Source of the DNA: Thermovibrio ammonificans HB-1
GTDB lineage: Bacteria; Aquificota; Aquificia; Desulfurobacteriales; Desulfurobacteriaceae
Length of the DNA: 64,000 nt
Assembly: GCF_000185805.1 (NCBI RefSeq)
Contig: NC_014926.1
Coordinates: 264,418 to 328,417, forward strand
Direction of reading: 5' to 3'
Positions 11,880 through 57,395 of the stretch are shown here, in pieces. How positions within the stretch are numbered: the stretch's first letter is position 1; each line of letters begins with the position of its first letter. Position numbers and translations under genes: made by a program. The notes beneath the pieces are model-generated. The model had not been told where the DNA came from. It ran no database searches and was given only the letters and a program-made list of their open reading frames with translations.

Positions 11880-12590
11880 ATGAGAAGAGCAGCTTTAGCA
11901 GCTTTTGCCGCTTTTGCCGTTTCTGCTACCGGAGCCTTTGCCGCTCAGCCTCCGGCAAAGCCTGTTAAGGAGGTGAAGCTCGACAGGCAGACAAAGAGGG
12001 AGTTCTTCCTCTCTCTAAGGAGCGGCGACTTTAAGAAAGCGGAAGAGCTCATTGCGTCGGGTAGAGTACCCGTAGACTACCGTAACAAGTTCGACCAAAC
12101 TCCCCTCTACTACGCCGTAGACGCAGACAACGTTGAGTTCGCCAAGTTCCTTATAGAGCACGGTGCAAATGTGAACGCCACCGACTACTTCGGCCTCACC
12201 CCCTTACACGAGGCGGTCGTAAGGGGTAGCTATAGAGTTGCCAAGCTCCTTATAGAGCACGGTGCAAAGGTAAACGCCACCGATAAGTACGGCTACACCC
12301 CCCTTCACCTTACGGCCATTTACAACAGGCCCAGGCTTGCCAAGCTCTTAATAGAACACGGGGCAGATGTGAACGCTAAGGACAACTACGGGAACACTCC
12401 CCTCCACTACTGTGCCACTACCAAGGGGAGTGAAGCCGTTGCCAAGGTTCTCCTTGAAAACGGAGCAAACCCCAACGTTAAGAACAACAGGGGTAAAACT
12501 CCCCTCGACCTTGCAAACGAGAGTAAGAACTTTAAAGTTTCAAGGCTTATAGCCACCTACCTTGAGAAGGCCCAGTCTAAGGGGAAGTAG
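11880..12590 (+). CDS. secreted ankyrin-repeat protein
   Basis: Signal peptide MRRAALAAFAAFAVSATGAFA. At least four ankyrin repeats of the form TPLH...GANVNAxD. Confidence 0.75.
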   Translation: MRRAALAAFAAFAVSATGAFAAQPPAKPVKEVKLDRQTKREFFLSLRSGDFKKAEELIASGRVPVDYRNKFDQTPLYYAVDADNVEFAKFLIEHGANVNATDYFGLTPLHEAVVRGSYRVAKLLIEHGAKVNATDKYGYTPLHLTAIYNRPRLAKLLIEHGADVNAKDNYGNTPLHYCATTKGSEAVAKVLLENGANPNVKNNRGKTPLDLANESKNFKVSRLIATYLEKAQSKGK

Positions 12591-35761: not shown

Positions 35762-37970
35762 TTGGTTGAGCCTCCTTTAGATATTCAAGTTTAAATTCTG
35801 ATTAATCTATCTTACTTGGGATAGTTTTGGAGCTTTTGAAACTTAGAGTTAGGTGGTTGCCTAAGATTCCAAATTATGAGATAATCAAAATTTAAAGACA
35901 ATGTTAAATCTAGCGGCACTAGCTATGTTTTAATTAAATCTTTGGGAATGAGCCCTTTGTTTATTAAAAATTTCTTAACTGCTTTTAATCGTGCAGCTAT
36001 GAAATTTTCAAAGTCATCTTCCTCTAATGCTTTAATAGCAGCTTCGTTTATGAAGTGACTTTTTAAAATTCTGTTTAACTCTTTAGTATTTCTTCCATTA
36101 CTTTTTAGTTTTTTAAGAAATTCTGAAGGTTTCTGGGCTCCTTTTAAAATTTTATTAGTCTCTGAACTAGATAATGTTCTATTAAGAACTATATCTGCTC
36201 TTTTCTTATTGCTAAAAAACTTTTTGGGGAATATATGTTCGTCTGTAGCCTTAAATAGAGTTAAGGTATTTCCGGATGCAAAGTCTTTTACTTTGTTTAA
36301 GAGTAAAAGAGCTATAAAGCCCTTGAGAAGTGCAGAACTTTTGGCTTTTGGTTTAAGAAGTTCTGAAAGATTGATAGACTCTATACCAATGAAGTGCTGT
36401 ATTTTCTCTTCTACATCTCTACCTTTTGAAAGCAGTTCATTTATAAAGCGTAGAAAATTTTTAAAGTCTTGGTAGGATTTTGTGGCAGCTCCTTCGTCAT
36501 AGCGTTCTGAGAATACGTTTAGGAAGTACCACTGTTTTATGTATTTTGTAAGTATATCTTCATTACTTAATAGCCACTTCTTAATATCAGTAAAGGTTTG
36601 TTGCTTCATGTGTGTAAGAAAATTAAAATTGCCTAATAGTTGCTGTTGCTTTTCTTTATCGGAGGTTTGTTGCTTTATGTGTGTAAGAAAAGCAAACATG
36701 GCAACTAATGGAACCAACATTGAAGTGTAAGGGAGGTTTTTGCTAACTGTTCCTAACTCGTTTTGGAGAAAGTCTAAGCTTTTCTCTAAGCCTATTTCTA
36801 AAGTTTCTTTATAGCTTTTGAAGTCTTTAGCTGAAATTGTAATTAGCTGTTTGGGTTTAGGTTCTTTGTTTAGAAGAAGAGCTAGAACTTTTAGTATTAG
36901 TGAGCTGTTAAGCTCTTTAAGATCTTTAAAGTATGAGAACTTATCCTTTATTTCTTCTATTACAATCTCTACATCTTGTTTTTTCAGACCTTCTTTTCGA
37001 AGTTTAGCAAAAAGCAAGTCTGTGGTGGAAAGTTTATAGCTGGTTCTATTGATCCGCTCAAAAATTTCTACTACATCTTCAAGTTTAACATCTTGAGGAA
37101 CAGTGATATAAAATACTTCAAATTCAAAAAATCTTCTAAGAGCGCTTCTTACCTTTTGAGCTTTTTCTTGTTCAAGAATTTCTCTTAAGTTATCGTAAAT
37201 TTCATCGATAATTGTGTCGTCAATTCTGCCATTACTGATAAGTTTTGATAAATTGATATATTCAATACTACCGTTGATGTTTTTTAAGAACTCTTGAAAT
37301 TTAAGTTCTGAATTAGTTTCTTTTTTGAGACTCTCAAATTTTTCTTTCAAATGAAAATATTCTTTTTGTAGTATTTTTCTGTATTCCCGATTAGTTTCAC
37401 TTTCGGTAGCATACACTATAGAATCTTGAAGTTCTCCTTTTATTAATTGGGGAATATATAGGTAGAATCTATGGGGATTTTTGCTACCTTGTAAAACTTG
37501 GTCTGTAGGTGTAATAGAGTAAAGGATAGAATTAAGTCTTTGTTGACCATCTAAGACAACGTTTACTATAGTGTTCTCATCAGGGGACTTTACATTTTGG
37601 TTTTTTAATGCTGGTAGAGGTTTTACTTGGAAGTCAATTTTCCCTTTAGTATTTTGATGAAAAAGGATAGTTCCTATAAAATAACCTCCAAGTATTGATG
37701 TTAAAAGCTCTTTTATATCTTCTGCTTTCCATATAAAGTCTCTTTGGAATTCGGGAATTAAAATTTCACTCTTGAAAGCCTTTTCAATAATGTTGCGAAT
37801 TTTGATTCTGTCTGTAGATAACATTAGAGGCATTTTATCCCCCTATGAAGTTAGTTCTGCTTTTAGAATTTAGGAGAATATTCTATCTGCTGCAAGTTTA
37901 TAGTGATGTCTTGGTAAAGTTCGAGCCTCCCTGCAACTCCTTTGCAATAGGAGTTAGTAGTCACTAAATT
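35762..37970. other. AT-rich genomic islet A (about 30% GC) inserted 3' of tRNA-Leu; single defence-type gene
   Basis: GC content drops sharply right after the tRNA-Leu 3' end and recovers at about 37970. Confidence 0.55.
35923..37833 (-). CDS. GmrSD-like DUF262/DUF1524 fusion nuclease (candidate type IV modification-dependent restriction enzyme)
   Basis: N-terminal DUF262 motifs PEFQRDFIW and VVLDGQQRLNSI. C-terminal His-Me/DUF1524-like DEHIFPKK...NRTLSSSETNKILKG. 636 aa in very AT-rich coding sequence. Confidence 0.65.
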   Translation of the reverse strand: MPLMLSTDRIKIRNIIEKAFKSEILIPEFQRDFIWKAEDIKELLTSILGGYFIGTILFHQNTKGKIDFQVKPLPALKNQNVKSPDENTIVNVVLDGQQRLNSILYSITPTDQVLQGSKNPHRFYLYIPQLIKGELQDSIVYATESETNREYRKILQKEYFHLKEKFESLKKETNSELKFQEFLKNINGSIEYINLSKLISNGRIDDTIIDEIYDNLREILEQEKAQKVRSALRRFFEFEVFYITVPQDVKLEDVVEIFERINRTSYKLSTTDLLFAKLRKEGLKKQDVEIVIEEIKDKFSYFKDLKELNSSLILKVLALLLNKEPKPKQLITISAKDFKSYKETLEIGLEKSLDFLQNELGTVSKNLPYTSMLVPLVAMFAFLTHIKQQTSDKEKQQQLLGNFNFLTHMKQQTFTDIKKWLLSNEDILTKYIKQWYFLNVFSERYDEGAATKSYQDFKNFLRFINELLSKGRDVEEKIQHFIGIESINLSELLKPKAKSSALLKGFIALLLLNKVKDFASGNTLTLFKATDEHIFPKKFFSNKKRADIVLNRTLSSSETNKILKGAQKPSEFLKKLKSNGRNTKELNRILKSHFINEAAIKALEEDDFENFIAARLKAVKKFLINKGLIPKDLIKT

Positions 37971-40246: not shown

Positions 40247-41278
40247 TTGAGGCTTGAGGAGATTTTTCAAAAAGTTCCCGTTATAGGCGAGGCTTACCTT
40301 ACCTTCAGCCAGCCCGAGAACTTCTACCTTACGGGCTTTCGCTCAACTTTTGGCGTTACGGTGGTTACCGCTAAGGGAGACGCCCTTTTCCTCACAGACG
40401 GCCGCTACTTTGAAGAGGCCAAGAAGCAGGTGAAGAACTTTAAGCTTGTTCTCTGGAAAGGTTGGGAAACCCTGAAAGAGGTGTTAAAAGGGCTCTCTTT
40501 GGAGTCTGTATCTGTTGACCCTTCAAGGCTCTCCCTTGCAAACTACCGAAAGCTTCAGGAGTTCATTCAAGTTGTGGAGGCTCCCGGCTTTATATCCCAG
40601 TTCAGGGCCAGGAAAACTCCCCGGGAAATCTCCCTCATCACAAGGGCTGTTCAGATAGCAGAGCTTTCCCTGAAAAGCGTTTTGCACCTTCTAAAACCCG
40701 GAATTACAGAGCTTGAGTTCCGCAGGGAGCTTATAAACGCCTTCTTTAAGTTCGGGGGAGAGGGAGAGGCCTTCCCCACCATAGTCGCCTCGGGTCCCGG
40801 TTCCGCAATTCCCCACTGGCAGACCTCAAACAGGGAGATAAAAGACGGCGACGTTGTAATAGTAGACTTCGGAACCGTTTACGGCGGCTACGTTTCCGAT
40901 ATTACAAGGACTTTCCTCGTAGGGAACGTTCCGTCGCAGATGAAAGAGGTTTACACCGTAGTTAAAGAGGCTCAGGAGCTCGGGGTTTCCCTTTTAAAGG
41001 CGGGGAAGGCCTGTAAAGAGATGGATTCGGCCGTTAGGGAGTTTATCGCCTCTAAAGGTTACGGGGAGTTCTTCGTCCACTCCCTCGGTCACGGAATAGG
41101 AATAGAGGTGCATGAAGCTCCCACTCTTTCTATCCGTTCAGACCAAGTCCTTCAAGAGGGAAACGTTGTTACCGTTGAGCCGGGTATCTACATCCCGGAG
41201 CTCGGCGGCGTTCGAATAGAAGACGACTGCCTTGTCACTGTTGAGGGAAGTTTCCTTATTTCACATGTCATCGTTTAA
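40247..41278 (+). CDS. M24-family Xaa-Pro aminopeptidase / prolidase
   Basis: Creatinase-type N-terminal domain plus M24 metal-ligand motifs HSLGHGIGIEVHE and VEPGIY...RIEDD. Confidence 0.8.
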   Translation: MRLEEIFQKVPVIGEAYLTFSQPENFYLTGFRSTFGVTVVTAKGDALFLTDGRYFEEAKKQVKNFKLVLWKGWETLKEVLKGLSLESVSVDPSRLSLANYRKLQEFIQVVEAPGFISQFRARKTPREISLITRAVQIAELSLKSVLHLLKPGITELEFRRELINAFFKFGGEGEAFPTIVASGPGSAIPHWQTSNREIKDGDVVIVDFGTVYGGYVSDITRTFLVGNVPSQMKEVYTVVKEAQELGVSLLKAGKACKEMDSAVREFIASKGYGEFFVHSLGHGIGIEVHEAPTLSIRSDQVLQEGNVVTVEPGIYIPELGGVRIEDDCLVTVEGSFLISHVIV

Positions 41279-42128
41279 CTACTCTGCCTAATCGGATTTT
41301 AAAATCAGTTATTTCTTTCTCTACTTTACTTCCTACGTTTAAAAAGAAGTCTGCTTCTTCTATTACAGGAGTATTCTTTCCAAATTTAAACTTGGTTAAT
41401 AAAATTATTTCTCCTTCTACTTCATATTCTTTTACCAGATTTAAATCTATAAAGTGTAAAGAAGGTGAATTTTGTGGGATTTTTTCCAGTTGCCACTCAT
41501 CCTTAGTTCTATCATCGCTGACTTCAATTACCTCGATTAGAGAGAGTTCTCCATAACCGTATCTTACATCTCCTCCAATGTAAATAGGGCGGTTTTTCAT
41601 ATTTTTAAGGTAATTTTCATGCTCTTGCTCTTTTAAATTGACGAATCCTATCCAGTGTATTTGCTCGTGTTTTTCTATAGAAAAATCTTTAAAAGGAACT
41701 TCCTGTTTGGGATTTGGTAGAATGAAGTCAAGCTCATGTAGACTTTCGTCTTTTGCTCTTCTGCTTAGTGGCTCTATCGCTGTTTGTATAATATTGTCCA
41801 CTAAGTAGAATCTAAACATGTCTTCGTAAAGACAGTTTGAGTTAATATCAAAGCAGAACATACCTTCTTTATAAGAAGGCTTTAGCAATTTTGTGCCGTT
41901 AGCATCGAAACTGGGATAGAAGTTAGTTATTTCTTCGAATAAAGAGCTTGTTTCATCTTTGTCTAATTTAGCCGCCTCATCTTTAAAAAAAATTGAAAAA
42001 TGGTTAGTTAGAGCTCCCCACATAGTTTGCCCTGGAATGAAGATTGCTGTTTCTTTTATAACACCCCACTTAAATGAACCTATATGAATAGGTTGTTCTT
42101 GTCTGAAAACCAATTTATACCAACCCAC
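41268..42128 (-). CDS. cmr3: Cas5-group RAMP, Cmr3-like
   Basis: N-terminus WYKLVFRQEQPIHIG...IFIPGQTMWGALTNHF parallels the Cmr3 consensus (h-FR-x-RPF ... IPGSTVAGAIRT). Confidence 0.55.
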   Translation of the reverse strand: MGWYKLVFRQEQPIHIGSFKWGVIKETAIFIPGQTMWGALTNHFSIFFKDEAAKLDKDETSSLFEEITNFYPSFDANGTKLLKPSYKEGMFCFDINSNCLYEDMFRFYLVDNIIQTAIEPLSRRAKDESLHELDFILPNPKQEVPFKDFSIEKHEQIHWIGFVNLKEQEHENYLKNMKNRPIYIGGDVRYGYGELSLIEVIEVSDDRTKDEWQLEKIPQNSPSLHFIDLNLVKEYEVEGEIILLTKFKFGKNTPVIEEADFFLNVGSKVEKEITDFKIRLGRVVKR

Positions 42129-42130
42129 TG

Positions 42131-42502
42131 TTAATCTCCTAAACTTTTTGCATGATATCTGGCATAGATAAGAGTCTTTTCTAAAAGTTGTTTGATGAAA
42201 AGAAGTTTATGTAGATCTTCAGATATAGATTGAAAATAATTTTCAAAACTCTCTTCTTCGCTTTTTTCTTTTACAAATTTCATTACTCTCATTAATTCGT
42301 TGAATAAAGCATGATCATTTATGTCTTTTCGAGATCTTGCCCAAACCCACATAGCATAGACACCATTGTTTGCTAAAACTCCAAGTAGTTTATTTATTTC
42401 AGTTTCTTCTAATATTCCTTCCGACACTATTTCATAAGAAATTTTACTTATTAGAGCTTCTAAACTTTCTACCTTTTGGTTAGACATCTTGATTTCCTCC
42501 AT
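42131..42502 (-). CDS. cmr5: small alpha-helical subunit, Cmr5/Cas11-like
   Basis: 123 aa and predicted all-helical. Sits in the cmr5 position between the cmr4-like and cmr3-like genes. Confidence 0.4.
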   Translation of the reverse strand: MEEIKMSNQKVESLEALISKISYEIVSEGILEETEINKLLGVLANNGVYAMWVWARSRKDINDHALFNELMRVMKFVKEKSEEESFENYFQSISEDLHKLLFIKQLLEKTLIYARYHAKSLGD

Positions 42503-43667
42503 CTGAATTGTTTTTTTTCTCTTGTAAATTTATTACTAACCTTCCAAAGCCTCTTGTTGTCATACCACCTATACCAAGGGTTTCATAAAAATGTTTGCTG
42601 TCCTCTAAAGCATTTTTTAAATCCCCTACTTCAGGAAGGGGGGTTAATTTTTCTTCAATCTCTCCAAAGCTTTTCTTATCGAAGATTCTTATATTTCCGT
42701 AAAAGATTGTGCCCCTTGGAATAGCTTCAGATGTGAATAACGCACCTTCTTTTGCCGCACCAGTGATTGGGTCTATAGAAACAGAAGTTCTAACTTCAAG
42801 GTTTGAGTTAACTATGTGCGGAAATAAATCTTCGGGAACAATGATTATATCTTTAGGTTCTAATTTAAAGCTACCAAACTCACTTATGTCGTTGGTGAGG
42901 CTTATATTATGTTTGCTAGTATCTACTTCCAAATATAACCAGCCTAGATTTAAATGAGAAATATCTTCTTCACTATTGTGAATTCTTATTTTTTTGTCTG
43001 TAGGTTTACTTTCATCAATTCCTGTCTTTCTCAGTTTTGAAGCTGTTGTTATCCATTTTGTTCCTTTTATTGTAAAAACGGGGAAAAGTATAATTTCCAA
43101 ATCACTAAAAAATAACATCCCTTGCCAGCTAATATCTTTTTTAGAAAAACCAAAACCTTTACAAACTATACAATGTCCACAGTGCCCTGTATTTTCTACT
43201 GAGTCGTTTAAATCTTCAAAATATTTATCAGGAGCTTCATCTTGCCCAGCACATTTAATTCCGATAAATCTATTCCCTTCAAATAGAATCCATTTCTTGT
43301 TATTTGAATCTTCTATGTTAAAGATTTGCTTCATAAATTCCTTTCTTTCATTGGAATCTAACGCTGACCAAATTGATTTTCCCTTTGATCTTAGGAATTC
43401 GTTCAACTTATTTTTCCTTTCAGATTTATTAATTTTGAATTTATCATTAGAAAAATATTTATGAACCTCTAAGACAACATAATATCTCCAAGTTCCGGCT
43501 AAACTGCTACCGGGAATTTTGGGAACATTTGTTATTGGGTCTCTTACAATAGTATTGTCCACCCTACCGATTGTGTATCCACCAGTTCCAATGTAAATTG
43601 GGTCGGAAGCCATTGCAAATATTTCTAATTCTTTTACTGGGTTATTATTTCCCGTCCTCTGGCTCAT
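42480..43667 (-). CDS. cmr4: Cas7-group RAMP, Cmr4-like backbone subunit with CxxC zinc knuckle
   Basis: IYIGTGGYTIGRVDNTIVRDPITNVPKIPGSSLAG matches the Cmr4/Csm3 G-loop. Also carries a C-terminal G-rich loop GIGGMTTRGFGRL and a CGHCIVC motif. Confidence 0.6.
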   Translation of the reverse strand: MSQRTGNNNPVKELEIFAMASDPIYIGTGGYTIGRVDNTIVRDPITNVPKIPGSSLAGTWRYYVVLEVHKYFSNDKFKINKSERKNKLNEFLRSKGKSIWSALDSNERKEFMKQIFNIEDSNNKKWILFEGNRFIGIKCAGQDEAPDKYFEDLNDSVENTGHCGHCIVCKGFGFSKKDISWQGMLFFSDLEIILFPVFTIKGTKWITTASKLRKTGIDESKPTDKKIRIHNSEEDISHLNLGWLYLEVDTSKHNISLTNDISEFGSFKLEPKDIIIVPEDLFPHIVNSNLEVRTSVSIDPITGAAKEGALFTSEAIPRGTIFYGNIRIFDKKSFGEIEEKLTPLPEVGDLKNALEDSKHFYETLGIGGMTTRGFGRLVINLQEKKNNSDGGNQDV

Positions 43668-43668
43668 C

Positions 43669-46600
43669 TTAAACCTCCTTTAACATTGTATGCCAGAATT
43701 CAAACATATCTATGAATAGATAAAGGTTTTTTGTGTTAGATAAAGCTTCTCTTAATTTCTCTAAATATTCCTGTGAATTTAAATTTACGTCTATGTCGAA
43801 GATTTCCTTAAAAAGTATTCTTCTGTTTATATCATGTAAGTCTAAGTATCTATAAAACATTGGAGCAAACATATAACTGTAATCTGTTCCGAAGTTTTCG
43901 TCTTCTATTTCTGGAAGCTTTGAGTATATAAACTCTACGATTTTGAATAATCGACTTCTTTGATAATTTTTCCCCGTAATTAATTTTTTGAACGCTTTAA
44001 ATTTATCCCAATATTTCTCTATCTCATAAGGTCTATTAGATTTACGCTTAATAGCTCTTTTGTATTTATTGTTTTCATCATAAAAAATATCGTTTTTTCT
44101 TGTATTCGTGTCCATGAATTCAAAATCGAAAGTGTTTGAGACTATTTCCACACTACTATTTTGAGGGAATTTGTCTATTGTGCTAATCCATTTTTTCCAA
44201 TTGTTGTTTGGTTTAATGTAAAAGTTATAATCTTTTTCATACATGTTGTTCCAATAGAGAGAGTAATACCTTTCAGTGTTGTTTATTGATTCTTCTATCG
44301 AGGCTAAAGATAATTTTTTCTTTTGATAAATACAGAATTCACTAATACATTTTGACTCATACAATTTATTTATATCTTTAACATCTCTTCTTATCCTTCT
44401 TAAAGCTTTCAAATTTACATAAGCAGGTCTTTTATAATGAGAAACCACAATTCCTATATGTAGCGGAAGTTTACCATGCACATATTTAAATTCTCTATTG
44501 TATCTTTCCATTACTCCGTCTATAAATTTCTCTAAATACTCTGCAGGGATAACAACTTGATAGCTTTTAGGTGATGGGTCAGTAATTTTAGCAAAAGGTT
44601 TATAGGAAATAAATTTGATGGCTTTTATATCGCTACTAGATATTGAAAATAGCTCATTTTTATCATTTGACCTCCTAAATTTTATACTGTGGAAATTAAA
44701 CTCTTGGAGGAAATTCCTTTCTTGCTCAATAGAGGAAAATAAGTTATTAAGTTTTTCATTTAACTTTTCAATGTTTTCTGGATTACTTTCTTTTCTAAGC
44801 TCGCCTAAAATTTCCTTAGACTTATTTCCATATTTTTTTATAAAATCTTCAATACTAGAAATTAAGTAGAATCTAACTTTATTTCCTTTAGGTTGAGCCC
44901 AATATAGAAGTCCATCTCCTTCTAATTCTTCTCCAGTGCTTTTAATTTTATTAGCAATATTTTCGTTTTCTATTTCAAAACAAATTCTTTGTTTTCTCCA
45001 TTTTGGAATATCCAAAATAGTATCCAAATTTATGTGTATATCTTCAAAAAATTCCCTCGTTGTTTCCCAAATTCTTCTAAGTCTAGCAGGTGAAGGGTTT
45101 TTTCTGAGTAAAAATTGGAGTAAGAGAATCGCTAAAAGGTCTACAGCAGGGTCGCTTTCACTAGTAAATTCTTCCCATTTTATTTTTTCATTTATCCAAT
45201 CTATCTTAGAGTTCAAAGAAGTTTCTTTTATCCAGCTTTCCCATTGTGTCCCGAGTATATTATCAAAGAATAGGCTTTCAGCATTTAAATTTCCCACTTT
45301 TTTTAATTCTTCATTTCTAGTAAAACTTAAATGTAACCAATCTTTATCTACTCTTTTTTTCTTTGAAATAATATTTTCTTTTATGCTCTCAATAAGTTGT
45401 TGACTTTTATTTTCTTCGATTTTTATGATTGTATTCAACAAATTCCCATTCAACCAATCCTCAAGCTCAAATTTTAGGGAAATATAGGCAACTCTATTAT
45501 TTTTATCTTTTACCTCATCCAGCCAGATGGTTTCACCAGAAATATTATCAATCCATTGGGAAACCTGTTTGTGATGAGTTCTATTATCACAAACTTCACA
45601 AATTGTCGGACTATTGTTTTTTTCTTTATCACTTTCGTAAATTAATCTAACCTGGCATATTGGACATATTCCAATAGCTTTTCCTTTTTTAGTTCTTAAT
45701 AGCCATAAATTCAAATCTTTCTTTCTTTTAGCTTTTAAGAAGTTATTTTTAGCATTTTCTAATAAATAAGAAAGGTTCATTAATCCTCTTGAAGCTTTAG
45801 TTAGGAAAATAGCAGGGTAAAATTCATCTTCAGTTTCTCTTTCAAAAATTTCATAAATTTTATTTTCCAGTTCTCTAAGTTCATTTTTTAATTTAGTCAT
45901 ATTTACATTTTCATCTGCTCCTAAATTATCCCCAACTATAAAATAAATTCCTGTTTCATCTCTATAAATTTCATTGCCTATTGGATACTCAACTTCTAAA
46001 AGTTTTTTAATCTCTTCATCTATTTTTTCTGTAATTTCTCTATACCACTGGATAGAAGCAAGTTTTAAACCTTTTTCTGCTAGTCCAAATTTGTCATATT
46101 GTATTCCTAAAATTCGCCATTTTACCTCTCTGATACTTTCCACTACTTTAGATGTTAAAATATAATTAGATATGAGAGCTTTAAATAAAGAAGAAGTTAC
46201 AAAAGTTTGTTGCCACAATGAGACTTCATTATTAGGAAATCTATCATCTGATATTAAATTATCTAGATATTTTTTTAATTTTATTTTTAATCCAATGCAA
46301 TTTTTGTAAATTTCATCTATTTTATTTTGATATTCTTCTTTTTTTGTATCTCCAAGAATAAAAAAGATTTTTTTTATCTCTTTAATTAATTCATCTTTAG
46401 TAAAGTCTCCTCTTGTATATTTTGAATCTTTTATAGCTCCAAATGGGTTGGATAAATTGTTAATTTTTTCTGATTTTATATTTGCTTTTTCAAACTGACT
46501 ATTTGTTATTTCGCTAAGGTTATAGTAGATTTTTAATAAATTATCCCATTTATTCCTCCAATTTTTTAAAAAATCTTTATATAAATAAAATCTTTCACCT

Positions 46601-46773
46601 AGTATATGAACATCTATACTAAACAAATTTTCTAACTCTAAGTCCATATCTTCTTGTTTATTCAAACCAACTACTTTTTCCCATAAAGCAAATAAACTTC
46701 CTATTTCAGCTTTTAAAATTTCACCTCTGTATTGTTCTAATCTATTTAAATCTAATCCTGACATCTTTCCCAC
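43669..46773 (-). CDS. cas10: large subunit, Cas10/Cmr2-like, with no detectable HD or GGDD catalytic motifs
   Basis: 1034 aa. Sits in the operon position of cas10. Has a treble-clef Zn finger CPICQ...CEVC at about residue 370. No HD dyad near the N-terminus and no GGDD/GGDE anywhere. Confidence 0.45.
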   Translation of the reverse strand: MGKMSGLDLNRLEQYRGEILKAEIGSLFALWEKVVGLNKQEDMDLELENLFSIDVHILGERFYLYKDFLKNWRNKWDNLLKIYYNLSEITNSQFEKANIKSEKINNLSNPFGAIKDSKYTRGDFTKDELIKEIKKIFFILGDTKKEEYQNKIDEIYKNCIGLKIKLKKYLDNLISDDRFPNNEVSLWQQTFVTSSLFKALISNYILTSKVVESIREVKWRILGIQYDKFGLAEKGLKLASIQWYREITEKIDEEIKKLLEVEYPIGNEIYRDETGIYFIVGDNLGADENVNMTKLKNELRELENKIYEIFERETEDEFYPAIFLTKASRGLMNLSYLLENAKNNFLKAKRKKDLNLWLLRTKKGKAIGICPICQVRLIYESDKEKNNSPTICEVCDNRTHHKQVSQWIDNISGETIWLDEVKDKNNRVAYISLKFELEDWLNGNLLNTIIKIEENKSQQLIESIKENIISKKKRVDKDWLHLSFTRNEELKKVGNLNAESLFFDNILGTQWESWIKETSLNSKIDWINEKIKWEEFTSESDPAVDLLAILLLQFLLRKNPSPARLRRIWETTREFFEDIHINLDTILDIPKWRKQRICFEIENENIANKIKSTGEELEGDGLLYWAQPKGNKVRFYLISSIEDFIKKYGNKSKEILGELRKESNPENIEKLNEKLNNLFSSIEQERNFLQEFNFHSIKFRRSNDKNELFSISSSDIKAIKFISYKPFAKITDPSPKSYQVVIPAEYLEKFIDGVMERYNREFKYVHGKLPLHIGIVVSHYKRPAYVNLKALRRIRRDVKDINKLYESKCISEFCIYQKKKLSLASIEESINNTERYYSLYWNNMYEKDYNFYIKPNNNWKKWISTIDKFPQNSSVEIVSNTFDFEFMDTNTRKNDIFYDENNKYKRAIKRKSNRPYEIEKYWDKFKAFKKLITGKNYQRSRLFKIVEFIYSKLPEIEDENFGTDYSYMFAPMFYRYLDLHDINRRILFKEIFDIDVNLNSQEYLEKLREALSNTKNLYLFIDMFEFWHTMLKEV

Positions 46774-47918
46774 CCTTTGTTCTTTGGTTTTTCGGGTAAT
46801 TCTATATTTTTATCTAAACAAATCTTCTTTTCTGATTCTAAAATTTCAAACCTTCCCCAGCCTAATTTTGTTTTAGCTCCAACTCCTTTGTTTGCTAAAA
46901 CTTTTAAAGCTTCAATTAAGTTGCCTAAATCTTTCTGGATTTCCTCTCTTAACTCTTCATCTGTTTTCAAAATCCCGTCAAAAGGAATATAAATTAATTG
47001 GAAAATTCCTTCTGTTCCTGCTGGGACTACTTCGTAATGAATTGGATTTTTTCCGGCTCTTTTTCTTCTATCGTGAGGATTGATTATTTCAAGAGAAAGT
47101 TCATCAAAATAGGTTGGATAAAATATGGCTCTTCCTTTGTGAGTTTGGAATTCTAAAGAAAGATAAGAATAGGAGTTTTTGTATTTTTCCCATACTTTGA
47201 CAGCAAGTAAGTTACTAATATCTTTATAGTTTTGTGCGTTATTTACATTTTCTATTAGTTCCTGATTTATTTCCAATCCTAACTCAAACAGAACAAATTT
47301 TAGAAACTCTTCTTTATATTTTTGTAAATTTTCATGTTCATTCCTTTTGAGTTTATTTTTTAGATACTCCTCCAATGTTTTTATACTTTCTGAACCTGCT
47401 CCGAATATTCTTAGAAAACTTTCTATAGCTTTTCGACTGTTTTCTAAAGTATTAGCTTTATTTATTAATTCTCTAAACGCATGGGCTAAAGCTCCTTTCC
47501 AGGCAGAGCCTCTAATCATTGGAACTTTGAAATTTGTTTCTTTTAAAATAGGGTTTTGAATTATATAAAATTCATCATCATCTTTTGAAAAATAAGGAGC
47601 TTTGAGTTTAAATTTAAACCAAATTGCAAAGGAATATTTAGGAAGTTTTTCTACATAGCTTTGTAGATTTGATAAGTTATTGTTTTCATCATTTTCAAAA
47701 ATGCCCGAAATCCGTTTTATTTGTTGATTATTACCAATCTCATATTTTTTATTTTTTCTATTCTTAATAGAACCTTTATGATTTTCTAACTCTTTAGTTT
47801 TATTCTTCACATAACCAAATTTTAACCTAATAAAACTTTTAAATGAATTTTCTGTTTTTCTGAAAATTTCTCCGCTATTTTCCTTATATTCAACATAAAC
47901 TTCAAATTTAGCCATCAC
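46752..47918 (-). CDS. cmr6: Cas7-group RAMP, Cmr6-like
   Basis: MIRGSAWKGALAHAF (an IPGSS-KGALR-type motif) and a C-terminal G-rich loop GVGAKTKLGWGRFEI. Roughly 130-aa Lys/Asn-rich N-terminal extension. Confidence 0.55.
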   Translation of the reverse strand: MMAKFEVYVEYKENSGEIFRKTENSFKSFIRLKFGYVKNKTKELENHKGSIKNRKNKKYEIGNNQQIKRISGIFENDENNNLSNLQSYVEKLPKYSFAIWFKFKLKAPYFSKDDDEFYIIQNPILKETNFKVPMIRGSAWKGALAHAFRELINKANTLENSRKAIESFLRIFGAGSESIKTLEEYLKNKLKRNEHENLQKYKEEFLKFVLFELGLEINQELIENVNNAQNYKDISNLLAVKVWEKYKNSYSYLSLEFQTHKGRAIFYPTYFDELSLEIINPHDRRKRAGKNPIHYEVVPAGTEGIFQLIYIPFDGILKTDEELREEIQKDLGNLIEALKVLANKGVGAKTKLGWGRFEILESEKKICLDKNIELPEKPKNKGWERCQD

Positions 47919-49170
47919 TTTTACCTTCCAAATTTAGTAATCCGGCAATAGATAAAAATCCTGCTTTCAGTTGTTTATTTTCTTTATGTATAAATGGAAG
48001 TATTTTTGAACCTTCTCCTCGCTCGCCCAATAATTTGTGCCTGAATTTTTTCCATTGCATAATATCTTCACATTTATAGCTTTTACCTTTACATTCTATC
48101 TCTTTATTTTTTTGAAATTCTTTCCTATTATTAAAACATTCATTTTCAAATTTACTTTTATTATTTTGTTCTTTTTCTTCACAAATATGTCTTAAGCAAT
48201 CTCTTATATCTAATTTCTTTTTAAGGAGATATTTTATATTTTCATAGATATTACTACTATCGCTATTTTCTGAGAGTCTAAAAATAATAAATCTTTCAGG
48301 TATATTTTTTATATTTTCTTTAAAAACTTCCTCTTTTTTACAATTAAATTGAAAATTTTTCTTATTTATATATAAGATTGAAGAATGAGGAGAAGAATTT
48401 AAACCAATTTCACAAGATAACACTAGTTCTTTCCAAGAAAAATGAGTTTTGGAAAAATGAGTTTTGTCAAATAATTCAAAATCAGTTTTTCTCCAGTTGT
48501 TAATAGGATTATTATTGTTATTTTCTTTTACTTCCAAAACTTCTAACCTCCCATATCCTATATTCCACTTCCCACCCCAAAAGCCGTATTTATCCATAAA
48601 AGTTAAAAGTGGATAGAAAATTAGTTCTATAATTTCTTCCTCTACTTCAAAGATAACTTCAAAGTTCCCATAAAAGTATGGTTTAGCGAAATAAAAAACT
48701 GACCATGTCTTGTTAGACCTTTGGGGGCAATCTCCGTTTTCTTTAATTTCATAATTTACCTTATTTAAGCATATTCTATTTGGTAAATTGAGTTTATCCC
48801 CGAAACAGTAACCGCTTGAGTATTTAATCTCCTTTATTTCTATCAAACTTTTCCAATTTGTTGTCCCAAAGATAATTGAGGGATAAGGTATATCTTGTTC
48901 TAATAAACATTTAATTTTATCTTTAAAAGAATTCCCTTTGTTAGCCAAGCAATTTTTAAAATCTTTTCTATTTACTTCTTTTTCAAACCTACCTAATTTG
49001 GGGCTAAAGTGTTTTCTTTTACAAATCCCACTAAAATAACAAATAACTTCGAACCAAAATCTTAAACTTCCAATTAAAGAAGAAGGTCGTATTTCACAAT
49101 TTTCCCGCCAGGCATCGCCCGTCCATAAGGGAGTTATTGTGTTAAATTTTACAGCTATCTCCTTTTTCAC
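47908..49170 (-). CDS. cmr1: Cas7-group RAMP, Cmr1-like
   Basis: N-terminal ITPLWTGDAW...IRPSSLIGSLRFWFEVI matches the Cmr1/Cmr6 hallmark. Also has the G-rich loop YGFWGGKWNIGYGRLEV. GTG start. Cys- and Lys-rich C-terminal third. Confidence 0.55.
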   Translation of the reverse strand: MKKEIAVKFNTITPLWTGDAWRENCEIRPSSLIGSLRFWFEVICYFSGICKRKHFSPKLGRFEKEVNRKDFKNCLANKGNSFKDKIKCLLEQDIPYPSIIFGTTNWKSLIEIKEIKYSSGYCFGDKLNLPNRICLNKVNYEIKENGDCPQRSNKTWSVFYFAKPYFYGNFEVIFEVEEEIIELIFYPLLTFMDKYGFWGGKWNIGYGRLEVLEVKENNNNNPINNWRKTDFELFDKTHFSKTHFSWKELVLSCEIGLNSSPHSSILYINKKNFQFNCKKEEVFKENIKNIPERFIIFRLSENSDSSNIYENIKYLLKKKLDIRDCLRHICEEKEQNNKSKFENECFNNRKEFQKNKEIECKGKSYKCEDIMQWKKFRHKLLGERGEGSKILPFIHKENKQLKAGFLSIAGLLNLEGKSDG

Positions 49171-49225
49171 CCATCCCTCAGGTTATGGATTTTTTGGGTC
49201 AAAAGTTTTATTTAGGATATCATAA

Positions 49226-56791: not shown

Positions 56792-57331
56792 GTTTGAAAT
56801 GCCCTATAAGGGATTGTGACGTCAGGTGGTTGTAGAGGACGTAGTGGCCGTTGACGGGTTTGAAATGCCCTATAAGGGATTGTGACTTCGAGAACCATCT
56901 GGTTAACCCTCTGAGGAGTTACGTTTGAAATGCCCTATAAGGGATTGTGACACGCTTTCGAGGGCCGAAATCAGCTTCCCTGCTGCGGTTTGAAATGCCC
57001 TATAAGGGATTGTGACCAAGGGTGAGAGTCTGGGGCGTGTCGTTCATTACCGGGTTTGAAATGCCCTATAAGGGATTGTGACTTTTTACGAATAAGTTTT
57101 TCAAACCTGTGAGAAGCAAAGTTTGAAATGCCCTATAAGGGATTGTGACCCTCGTCTGGCCGACGGGCGGCGGTTGATTAGGTTCAGGTTTGAAATGCCC
57201 TATAAGGGATTGCGACGAGTAATCGTAGTCGTAGCGGACCACGGCACCCTATAAGGGATTGTGCCTTGCTTTTTCACGAACTCGGAGTAGGCCTTCTTAA
57301 CGGTTTGAAACGCCCTACAAGGGATTACATC
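56792..57331 (+). CRISPR. CRISPR array: nine repeats (two terminal degenerate), eight spacers; no adjacent cas genes
   Basis: 29-nt repeat GTTTGAAATGCCCTATAAGGGATTGTGAC at 56792, 56858, 56923, 56988, 57054, 57121 and 57188 (the last with one mismatch), with 36-38-nt unique spacers. Decayed copies at 57245-57265 and 57303-57331. An AT-rich leader-like stretch lies upstream at 56560-56790. Confidence 0.9.
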
Positions 57332-57395
57332 GGGCGGCTGTGGTGAGTGGAATAGCAGGGCTTTCCCTGAGCTCGGTTTTAATGGTTGCTTAAGC

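What the first reader, a model, noticed from the sequence alone, without database searches (positions are those of the whole stretch)
43669..46773. Large subunit retains the Cas10 Zn finger but lacks both the HD nuclease and GGDD cyclase signatures
The 1034-aa ORF occupies the cas10 slot and carries a treble-clef-like CPICQ...CEVC zinc finger at about residue 370, where Cas10 has one between its Palm domains. I could not find an HD dyad in the first 200 residues or any GGDD/GGDE/SGDD motif. If confirmed, the complex could neither cleave ssDNA nor synthesise cyclic oligoadenylates. That would explain the absence of any CARF or SAVED ancillary gene. Interference would rest solely on the Cmr4-like backbone, whose N-terminal loop (...GRVDNTIVRD...) retains Asp residues. 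This is more reduced than typical III-C Cas10, which keeps the HD domain.
Basis: seen in the sequence. Interest (0 to 1): 0.75.

Follow-up and report, generated by a model that had tools for sequence, protein, structure and literature searches.

The report
Catalytically dead Cas10 (Csx11), type III-C
The large gene is Csx11, the known Cas10-like large subunit of a standard type III-C CRISPR module in Thermovibrio ammonificans; it lacks both Cas10 catalytic motifs, but so does a large known clade of such proteins, so it is a clear yet ordinary example.

Summary
The ORF is on the minus strand. Its likely start is the ATG at 46764, which gives 1031 aa. It is 100% identical to the NCBI protein 'CRISPR-associated protein, Csx11 family [Thermovibrio ammonificans HB-1]'. 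It matches TIGR02682 (Csx11) end to end (E 4.6e-201) and PADLOC Cas10c. It sits in the canonical III-C operon cmr1-cmr6-csx11-cmr4-cmr5-cmr3.

A tree built without the N-terminus shows one HD-less clade (134 of 204 sequences). Loss of HD is therefore clade-wide, not special to this gene. Published surveys already report that III-C lacks cyclase sites and effectors and that only half keep HD. The Cmr4 catalytic Asp is kept (120/120 homologs). The most likely function is a scaffold for RNA-guided RNA cleavage. Novelty is low.

The parts
47908..49170 (-). cmr1 (420 aa), first gene of the III-C operon
   Evidence: PADLOC Cmr1 2.9e-147; TIGR01894 6.4e-10; Pfam RAMPs
46752..47918 (-). cmr6 (388 aa)
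   Evidence: PADLOC Cmr6 2.5e-95; TIGR01898 3e-10
43669..46764 (-). csx11 / cas10c, the large subunit. 1031 aa from the ATG at 46764; the ORF extends to a GTG at 46773.
46675..46710 (-). Degenerate HD motif I: AEIGSLFALWEK. HD-bearing relatives read AEIGALIHDLGK here.
   Evidence: Alignments; motif tally; coordinates checked
46486..46515 (-). Degenerate second N-terminal motif: SEITNSQFEK. HD-bearing relatives read CDxxDSGxDKG, and most of this clade reads CENINSGIDKG.
45940..45987 (-). Palm1 hairpin YPIGNEIYRDETGIYF, in the most conserved part of the protein
   Evidence: Invariant residues; conserved across the family; Palm1 region 61% mean identity
45589..45666 (-). Four-cysteine zinc finger: CPICQ...CEVC
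44536..44592 (-). Palm2 beta-hairpin region AKITDPSPKSYQVVIPAEY, where active Cas10 carries GGDD
   Evidence: Secondary structure of the model. Alignment shows the family-wide ...VPA... motif and no acidic pair. Relatives hit Pfam Cas10-Cmr2_palm2 just downstream of it.
42480..43667 (-). cmr4 (395 aa), the backbone RNase subunit
   Evidence: TIGR02580 2e-29, above its cutoff; PADLOC Cmr4 1.4e-39
43539..43568 (-). Cmr4 catalytic loop GRVDNTIVRD (Asp37)
   Evidence: Aligns to Pfu Cmr4 LGVVDQPIQRE. The Asp is present in 120/120 closest homologues.
42131..42502 (-). cmr5 (123 aa), the small subunit
   Evidence: PADLOC III-C-specific Cmr5 model, 5e-45
41268..42128 (-). cmr3 (286 aa), the Cas5-type subunit
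   Evidence: PADLOC Cmr3 1.1e-75
56792..57334 (+). Orphan CRISPR array of 8 repeats (GTTTGAAATGCCCTATAAGGGATTGTGAC). It is a possible in-trans source of crRNA.
   Evidence: The repeat resembles arrays that sit beside III-C loci in other genomes. The link to this module is an inference.

Best explanation
The gene encodes Csx11 (Cas10c), the large subunit of a complete, horizontally acquired type III-C (Cmr-like) effector module. It keeps the Cas10 architecture: two Palm domains, a zinc finger and a C-terminal helical domain. Both Cas10 active sites are gone. The Palm2 hairpin has no GGDD, which is true of the whole Csx11 family. The N-terminal HD domain has lost its metal ligands, which is true of the whole clade this protein belongs to.

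Inferred mechanism: Csx11 acts as a structural subunit. With Cmr3 it holds the 5' tag of a crRNA supplied in trans and nucleates the Cmr4/Cmr5 filament, which is capped by Cmr1 and Cmr6. The only remaining catalytic activity of the complex is crRNA-guided cleavage of complementary RNA by Asp37 of each Cmr4 copy. There is no cOA signalling and no Cas10 DNase.

Shown here: identity, fold, loss of motifs, clade distribution and retention of the Cmr4 Asp. Inferred: the scaffold role, the crRNA source and RNA-only interference.
For: Identity:
- TIGR02682 Csx11 670.7 bits against a cutoff of 249, full length.
- PADLOC Cas10c, plus III-C models for all five partner proteins.
- 100% identical to the annotated Csx11 of T. 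ammonificans HB-1.
- The same gene order occurs in S. azorense, Caldicellulosiruptor and a metagenomic HD-bearing locus.

Fold:
- AF2 model with pLDDT 82 and pTM 0.88.
- Foldseek top 50 hits are all Cas10 chains.

Cyclase loss:
- No GG dipeptide in the protein.
- The Palm2 hairpin region reads ...VPA... across the family, including HD-bearing members.
- The literature says the same of III-C.

HD loss:
- Motif tally at the aligned position: FN 105, HD 54, AL 19 (the state of this protein) and smaller classes.
- HH and CDxxDS in HD-bearing members are replaced here.
- The tree shows one HD-less clade of 134 out of 204 sequences.
- The N-terminal 170 aa are the least conserved region (31% identity, against 61% for Palm1) and have low pLDDT.

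Cmr4 activity: GRVDNTIVRD aligns to the Pfu Cmr4 catalytic loop and is identical in 111 of 120 homologues, with the Asp in 120/120.

No CARF, SAVED or HEPN gene among the window ORFs scanned.

The operon is intact, with overlapping or abutting genes.
Against: - No type III-C system has been characterised biochemically in the literature I could search, so RNA-only interference is extrapolated from III-A and III-B.
- In studied type III systems, target-RNA cleavage alone usually gives weak immunity (my own knowledge).
- Several strongly conserved family-specific blocks are more than a plain scaffold obviously needs: Palm1 YRDETG, NPSPARLRRIW and TFDFEF.D.N.RR.
- There is no cas6 and no adjacent array in the window, so the crRNA supply is unproven.
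- The window's CRISPR repeat was not found in the genome collection, so the rest of the genome could not be examined.
Confidence: 0.8

Rival explanations
1. Csx11 is not merely a scaffold. The HD-less, cyclase-less clade has a different, undescribed ligand-binding or catalytic site. Candidates are the conserved acidic Palm1 hairpin (YRDETG) and the family-specific TFDFEF.D.N.RR block. Such a site could, for example, sense nucleotides made by a co-resident type III system, or carry a new nuclease activity.
For: Palm1 is the most conserved region (61% mean identity), although it is the degenerate Palm domain in canonical Cas10 (my own knowledge). Invariant polar residues include E257, N264, E265, D269, S325, R326, D880, E882 and R889. 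Several of these blocks are kept in the HD-bearing clade too. The family is large and under purifying selection, with 1166 clusters at 50% identity.
Against: Conservation in Palm1 can be explained by its contacts with Cmr3 and the crRNA 5' tag. No known catalytic motif was recognised: Pfam finds nothing, and profile searches of the PDB find nothing. The first-strand Asp expected in an active Palm domain is not conserved across the family, since the QYD position varies between D and N. I had no model coordinates with which to test spatial clustering of these residues.
Confidence: 0.1
2. The module works only together with factors encoded elsewhere. One option is that it shares crRNAs and Cas6 with another CRISPR-Cas locus and acts as an RNA-cleaving auxiliary to a catalytically competent type III or type I system. 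Another is that it recruits a host nuclease in trans.
For: The window has no cas6, cas1 or cas2 and no adjacent array; the nearest array is 7.6 kb away and orphan. III-C loci mostly lack arrays (Makarova 2025). In S. azorense the module abuts a type I-B locus with cas6 and an array, and a csx1 gene lies 9 kb from the Caldicellulosiruptor module.
Against: Dependence on an in-trans crRNA supply is compatible with the main explanation and is not really a separate mechanism. No conserved extra gene accompanies the six-gene module in the four loci inspected.
Confidence: 0.07
3. The module is a non-functional or decaying passenger on a recently acquired island. On this view the extra decay of the N-terminal motifs in this protein reflects relaxed selection on the whole system.
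For: The island is 29% GC against 53% for the surrounding genome. The N-terminal motifs are more degenerate here than in most of the clade: SEITNSQFEK against CENINSGIDKG. pLDDT is low for residues 30-120.
Against: All six ORFs are intact and tightly packed. Every invariant residue of the family outside the N-terminus is kept. The Cmr4 catalytic loop is identical to the clade consensus. The nearest relative, P0002 (58% identity), shares the same N-terminal variant, so that variant is inherited and not private decay.
Confidence: 0.03

Closest known systems
Csx11 / Cas10c, large subunit of subtype III-C (TIGR02682; 'MTH326-like' module of Makarova et al. 2011 and 2015)
   Same: Full-length model match. 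Same six-gene operon order. Inactivated Palm2 cyclase. Four-cysteine zinc finger. No associated CARF or SAVED effectors. This protein is already annotated under this name in NCBI.
   Different: Nothing at the family level. Within the family it belongs to the HD-less clade and to a minority N-terminal variant (ALWEK rather than FNLGK), with extra decay of the NSGIDKG motif.
HD-bearing Csx11 proteins (for example Altiarchaeales and Pseudothermotoga MAG proteins; metagenomic locus L003)
   Same: They pass the same TIGR02682 cutoff. They are collinear along the whole length, with the same zinc finger, the same Palm2 ...VPA... hairpin region, the same operon and a Cmr4 that keeps its Asp.
   Different: They keep ILLAEIGALIHDLGK, an HH motif and CDxxDSGxDKG, and give weak HD/Cas3_HD Pfam and NCBIfam hits. 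They are therefore predicted to keep ssDNase activity, which this protein is not.
Canonical Cas10 (Csm1 of III-A, Cmr2 of III-B)
   Different: Only 8-15% identity, and no sequence-level hit even with a profile. No GGDD and no HD dyad. Extra insertions: a variable region at about aa 441-535 and a beta-rich block at about aa 801-912.
[quoted passage not shown] 2025, PMC12669027)
   Same: Cas10 cyclase inactivated, cOA signalling and ancillary effectors lost, and usually no adaptation genes.
   Different: These subtypes are reported to keep an active HD and to have lost the Cas7 catalytic Asp, so they are predicted to target DNA. Here the pattern is reversed: HD lost and the Cmr4 Asp kept, which predicts RNA targeting.

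Membership tests
Cas10 superfamily (type III large subunit) | Cas10 overall fold with two Palm (cyclase/polymerase-like) domains | tested here: met
Cas10 superfamily (type III large subunit) | Four-cysteine zinc finger following Palm1 | tested here: met
   C370, C373, C392 and C395 (1034-aa numbering). They are invariant in 107 homologues and in the HD-bearing clade. The treble-clef geometry itself was not checked.
Cas10 superfamily (type III large subunit) | Encoded in an operon with Cas5 (Cmr3/Csm4), Cas7 RAMPs and Cas11 | tested here: met
   Cmr1, Cmr6, Cmr4, Cmr5 and Cmr3 were all identified.
Catalytically active Cas10 (cOA synthase) | GGDD-type motif (or accepted variants such as AGDD, GGDE, SGDD) on the Palm2 hairpin | tested here: not met
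   No GG dipeptide anywhere in the protein. The hairpin region reads AKITDPSPKSYQVVIPAEY, and the family-wide motif there is ...VPA....
Catalytically active Cas10 (HD ssDNase) | N-terminal HD dyad plus the downstream His and Asp metal ligands | tested here: not met
   LFALWEK stands where relatives have LIHDLGK. The HH and CDxxDS motifs are replaced. There is only one His in the first 200 aa.
Csx11 / Cas10c (subtype III-C signature protein) | Full-length match to TIGR02682 above the curated cutoff | tested here: met
   670.7 bits against a cutoff of 248.95; residues 8-1030 match model positions 2-1006 of 1007. PADLOC Cas10c E 7.2e-122.
Subtype III-C locus | Gene set and order cmr1-cmr6-cas10(csx11)-cmr4-cmr5-cmr3 with an inactivated cyclase | tested here: met
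   The same order occurs in L001, L002 and L003. The reference order is as I recall it from Makarova 2015, a paper that is not held in the library.
Active Cmr4/Csm3 backbone RNase | Catalytic Asp in the N-terminal G-x-V-D-x-x-I-x-R-[DE] loop | tested here: met
   Asp37 aligns to the Pfu Cmr4 loop LGVVDQPIQRE. It is present in 120/120 homologues. Activity itself cannot be tested here.
cOA-signalling type III system | CARF or SAVED ancillary effector encoded nearby | tested here: not met
   None found among the roughly 54 ORFs scanned across the 64-kb window.

The most novel reading that the evidence does not exclude
The HD-less, cyclase-less Csx11 clade is found, among named sources, only in thermophiles, and is strongly conserved in Palm1 and in family-specific blocks. 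It may not be a dead scaffold. It may have a new ligand-binding or catalytic function, or it may define a multi-subunit type III effector whose immunity rests on RNA cleavage alone. No such mechanism has been demonstrated for any Cas10-containing system.
Probability: 0.12. Interest if true: 0.6.

Novelty: already known. Interest (0 to 1): 0.22.

Why it matters
Type III-C has not been characterised biochemically in any paper I could find. Members that lack both Cas10 activities raise a real question: how does a Cas10-containing effector defend a cell with neither DNase nor cOA signalling? This locus is compact, intact and thermostable, from a cultured organism (Thermovibrio ammonificans HB-1), so it could serve as a test case. 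The finding itself adds little. The protein is already annotated as Csx11. Cyclase inactivation defines the subtype. Absence of HD in about half of III-C systems has been published. The modest additions here are two: within the sampled family, HD loss maps to one clade (HD to FN, with the other ligands lost in parallel), and the Cmr4 catalytic loop is almost invariant in that clade.

Tried and rejected
- Sequence searches of the PDB, with the single protein and with a 107-sequence profile, gave no Cas10 hit. Only fold comparison showed the relationship.
- Pfam gave nothing for the protein itself.
- Tandem Repeats Finder did not detect the CRISPR array. The repeat finder did.
- An exact scan of genome contigs for the CRISPR repeat found nothing. 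I therefore could not check the rest of the genome for cas6, other Cas10 genes or CARF genes.
- A megablast of the island against plasmids found no match.
- Makarova 2015 (PMC5426118) is not held in the library.
- I searched for flanking direct repeats at the island borders and found only one 10-mer, which is probably chance.
- I considered whether IPAE is the direct GGDD equivalent. The model's secondary structure instead places the hairpin turn at DPSPK just upstream. Neither is GGDD-like, so the conclusion does not change.
- I considered a cryptic active site in Palm1 (QYD plus YRDE). The first-strand Asp is not conserved across the family, so I kept this only as a low-probability rival.
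Full report
**What is there**

The ORF at 43669-46773 is real but lies on the minus strand. From the GTG at 46773 it has 1034 codons. The annotated protein and nearly all homologues begin three codons later at an ATG (46764), which gives 1031 aa.

It is 100% identical to the NCBI entry 'CRISPR-associated protein, Csx11 family [Thermovibrio ammonificans HB-1]'.

NCBIfam TIGR02682 (Csx11) matches it end to end: E 4.6e-201, 670.7 bits against a cutoff of 249. PADLOC calls it Cas10c, the 'CAS-III-C effector large subunit' (E 7.2e-122). Pfam finds nothing.

It is the third gene of a tightly packed minus-strand operon:
- cmr1, 47908-49170
- cmr6, 46752-47918
- csx11
- cmr4, 42480-43667
- cmr5, 42131-42502
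- cmr3, 41268-42128

The partner genes are identified by strong PADLOC models, including III-C-specific ones. This is the textbook III-C gene order. I found the same order next to homologues in Sulfurihydrogenibium azorense, in Caldicellulosiruptor hydrothermalis and in a metagenomic contig.

The operon is a 29% GC island in a 53% GC genome. It sits exactly between pepQ and tgt.

**Is it a Cas10?**

Sequence alone does not show it. Neither the protein nor a 107-sequence profile hits any solved Cas10.

An AlphaFold2 model built on that alignment is confident: mean pLDDT 82 and pTM 0.88. The weak regions are residues 30-120 and two loops.

The Cas10 fold with Palm domains is therefore confirmed, at 8-15% identity.

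**The three motifs**

*Zinc finger.* CPIC (aa 370-373) and CEVC (aa 392-395) hold four of the protein's eight cysteines. All four are invariant in 107 homologues and in distant family members.

*Cyclase.* The protein has no GG dipeptide at all. In the model, the Palm2 hairpin, the following helix and the next strand read AKITDPSPKSYQVVIPAEY...GKLPLHIGIVV. Across the whole family, HD-bearing members included, this region is ...[FL]x[ILV]VPA... with no conserved acidic pair. Relatives hit Pfam Cas10-Cmr2_palm2 over the segment just after it, one of them above the gathering score. This agrees with the literature: 'inactivated Cas10 (Csx11 subfamily)' (PMC3150331), and cyclase inactivated in III-C (PMC12669027).

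*HD.* The first 979 residues contain no HD, and the first 200 contain one His. A profile search of 1.8 billion representative proteins found 1166 family clusters. The more distant ones still pass the Csx11 cutoff. They read ILLAEIGALIHDLGK exactly where most close homologues read ILKAEIGALLFNLGK and this protein reads ILKAEIGSLFALWEK.

The HD-bearing members also carry an HH motif and CDxxDSGxDKG, and they give weak Cas3_HD/HD hits. The FN group has CENINSGIDKG instead. This protein has SEITNSQFEK. The N-terminal domain is therefore a decayed HD domain, not a missing one.

**How unusual is that?**

Among the 253 family sequences collected, the two residues at the HD position are FN in 105, HD in 54, AL in 19 (the state of this protein), SL in 10, HM in 8, HL in 6, HN in 3 and TL in 3, plus five singletons. 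In 40 sequences, mostly fragments, the motif could not be located.

I built a neighbour-joining tree from residues 170 to the end only, so the motif could not influence it. It splits cleanly. One clade of 70 sequences always keeps the His (HD, or HM/HL/HN). One clade of 134 sequences never has H or D. This protein is inside the second clade.

Loss of the dyad is therefore best explained by a single event at the base of that clade. Among the sources that carry a name, the clade is found only in thermophiles: Persephonella, Sulfurihydrogenibium, Thermosipho, Caldicellulosiruptor, Thermoanaerobacter and Methanocaldococcus.

Hoikkala, Graham and White 2024 already state that cyclase sites and known effectors are absent from III-C, and that only half of III-C systems have a recognisable HD (PMC11229360).

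It is typical of its clade. What is particular to it and its nearest relative (P0002, 58% identity) is further erosion of the second N-terminal motif. The N-terminal 170 residues are the least conserved part of the protein: 31% mean identity, against 61% for Palm1.

**Surroundings**

No CARF, SAVED or HEPN protein was found among about 54 ORFs scanned across the window.

There is no cas6, cas1 or cas2 in the window. An eight-repeat CRISPR array lies 7.6 kb away at 56792-57334, between an M23 peptidase gene and trkH. Its repeat resembles those beside other III-C loci. It is a plausible crRNA source, but this is an inference.

I could not reach the rest of the genome.

**Mechanism**

Cmr4 keeps its catalytic loop. 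GRVDNTIVRD (aa 34-43) aligns with LGVVDQPIQRE of P. furiosus Cmr4. The Asp in that loop is the catalytic D26, by my own knowledge of that protein. The loop is identical in 111 of the 120 closest homologues, and the Asp is present in all 120. An HD-bearing III-C locus keeps the Asp too.

The best-supported reading is that Csx11 is a structural large subunit and that the complex is a crRNA-guided RNase with no cOA signalling and no Cas10 DNase. [quoted passage not shown]

The identity, the fold, the motif losses and the Cmr4 conservation are shown. The scaffold-only role and RNA-only immunity are inferred. I found no biochemical study of any III-C system.

**Rivals**

- A new site in Csx11. Palm1 is unusually conserved, and blocks such as YRDETG, NPSPARLRRIW and TFDFEF.D.N.RR are invariant. 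Interfaces with Cmr3 and the crRNA could explain this, and the first-strand Asp expected in an active Palm domain is not conserved.
- Dependence on partners encoded elsewhere. This is compatible with the main model.
- A decaying passenger. This is unlikely, because all six ORFs are intact and the family invariants are kept.

**Verdict**

The object is an already annotated member of a known family, and its 'double inactivation' has already been described at the subtype level. Interest is low to moderate, mainly as a clean candidate for the still missing biochemistry of III-C.

Noticed in passing
window 35923-37833 (- strand): A second low-GC island (31% GC against 53%) encodes a 636-aa protein. 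It has a GmrSD_N/DUF262 domain (Pfam 1.5e-26) and matches PADLOC HEC-05 and PDC-M55C. It is probably a type IV restriction-like defence gene, acquired separately and lying about 3.4 kb from the III-C island.
   Followed up: partly
window 56792-57334 (+ strand): An orphan CRISPR array of 8 repeats (GTTTGAAATGCCCTATAAGGGATTGTGAC, spacers 36-38 nt, last repeat degenerate) lies among housekeeping genes with no cas gene beside it. The repeat resembles arrays next to III-C loci in S. azorense and Caldicellulosiruptor. Spacer targets were not searched.
   Followed up: partly
Csx11 family alignment (window 46675-46710 and homologues): Within the HD-less clade there are two N-terminal variants, FNLGKTH...CENINSGIDKG and [AST]LW[DE]K...ESLNSGIDKG. 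They are scattered across the tree built from the rest of the protein. This suggests either exchange of the N-terminal module or repeated parallel decay.
   Followed up: no
window 42480-43667 (- strand), Cmr4 aa ~70-180: This Cmr4 is long (395 aa against about 300 for solved Cmr4 proteins). It has an insertion of about 110 aa after the catalytic loop, followed by a GHCGHCIVCKGFG cysteine motif. The insertion was not analysed.
   Followed up: no
window 41268-41278 and 49171-49225: The low-GC III-C island is inserted very tightly. The 3' end of cmr3 overlaps the 3' end of pepQ by 11 bp, and only 55 bp separate the cmr1 start from the divergent tgt start. No convincing flanking direct repeats were found.
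   Followed up: partly
window 11880-12590 (+ strand): A 236-aa ankyrin-repeat protein (Pfam Ank families, E about 1e-47) has three 99-bp DNA repeats at 12141-12407. Ankyrin-repeat proteins are uncommon in bacteria.
   Followed up: no
HD-bearing Csx11 clade (P0191, P0201, P0211, P0222, P0199, P0216 and others): Several sub-groups of the His-retaining clade have lost only the Asp of the dyad (HL, HM, HN), which suggests further independent partial inactivation of the HD site.
   Followed up: no
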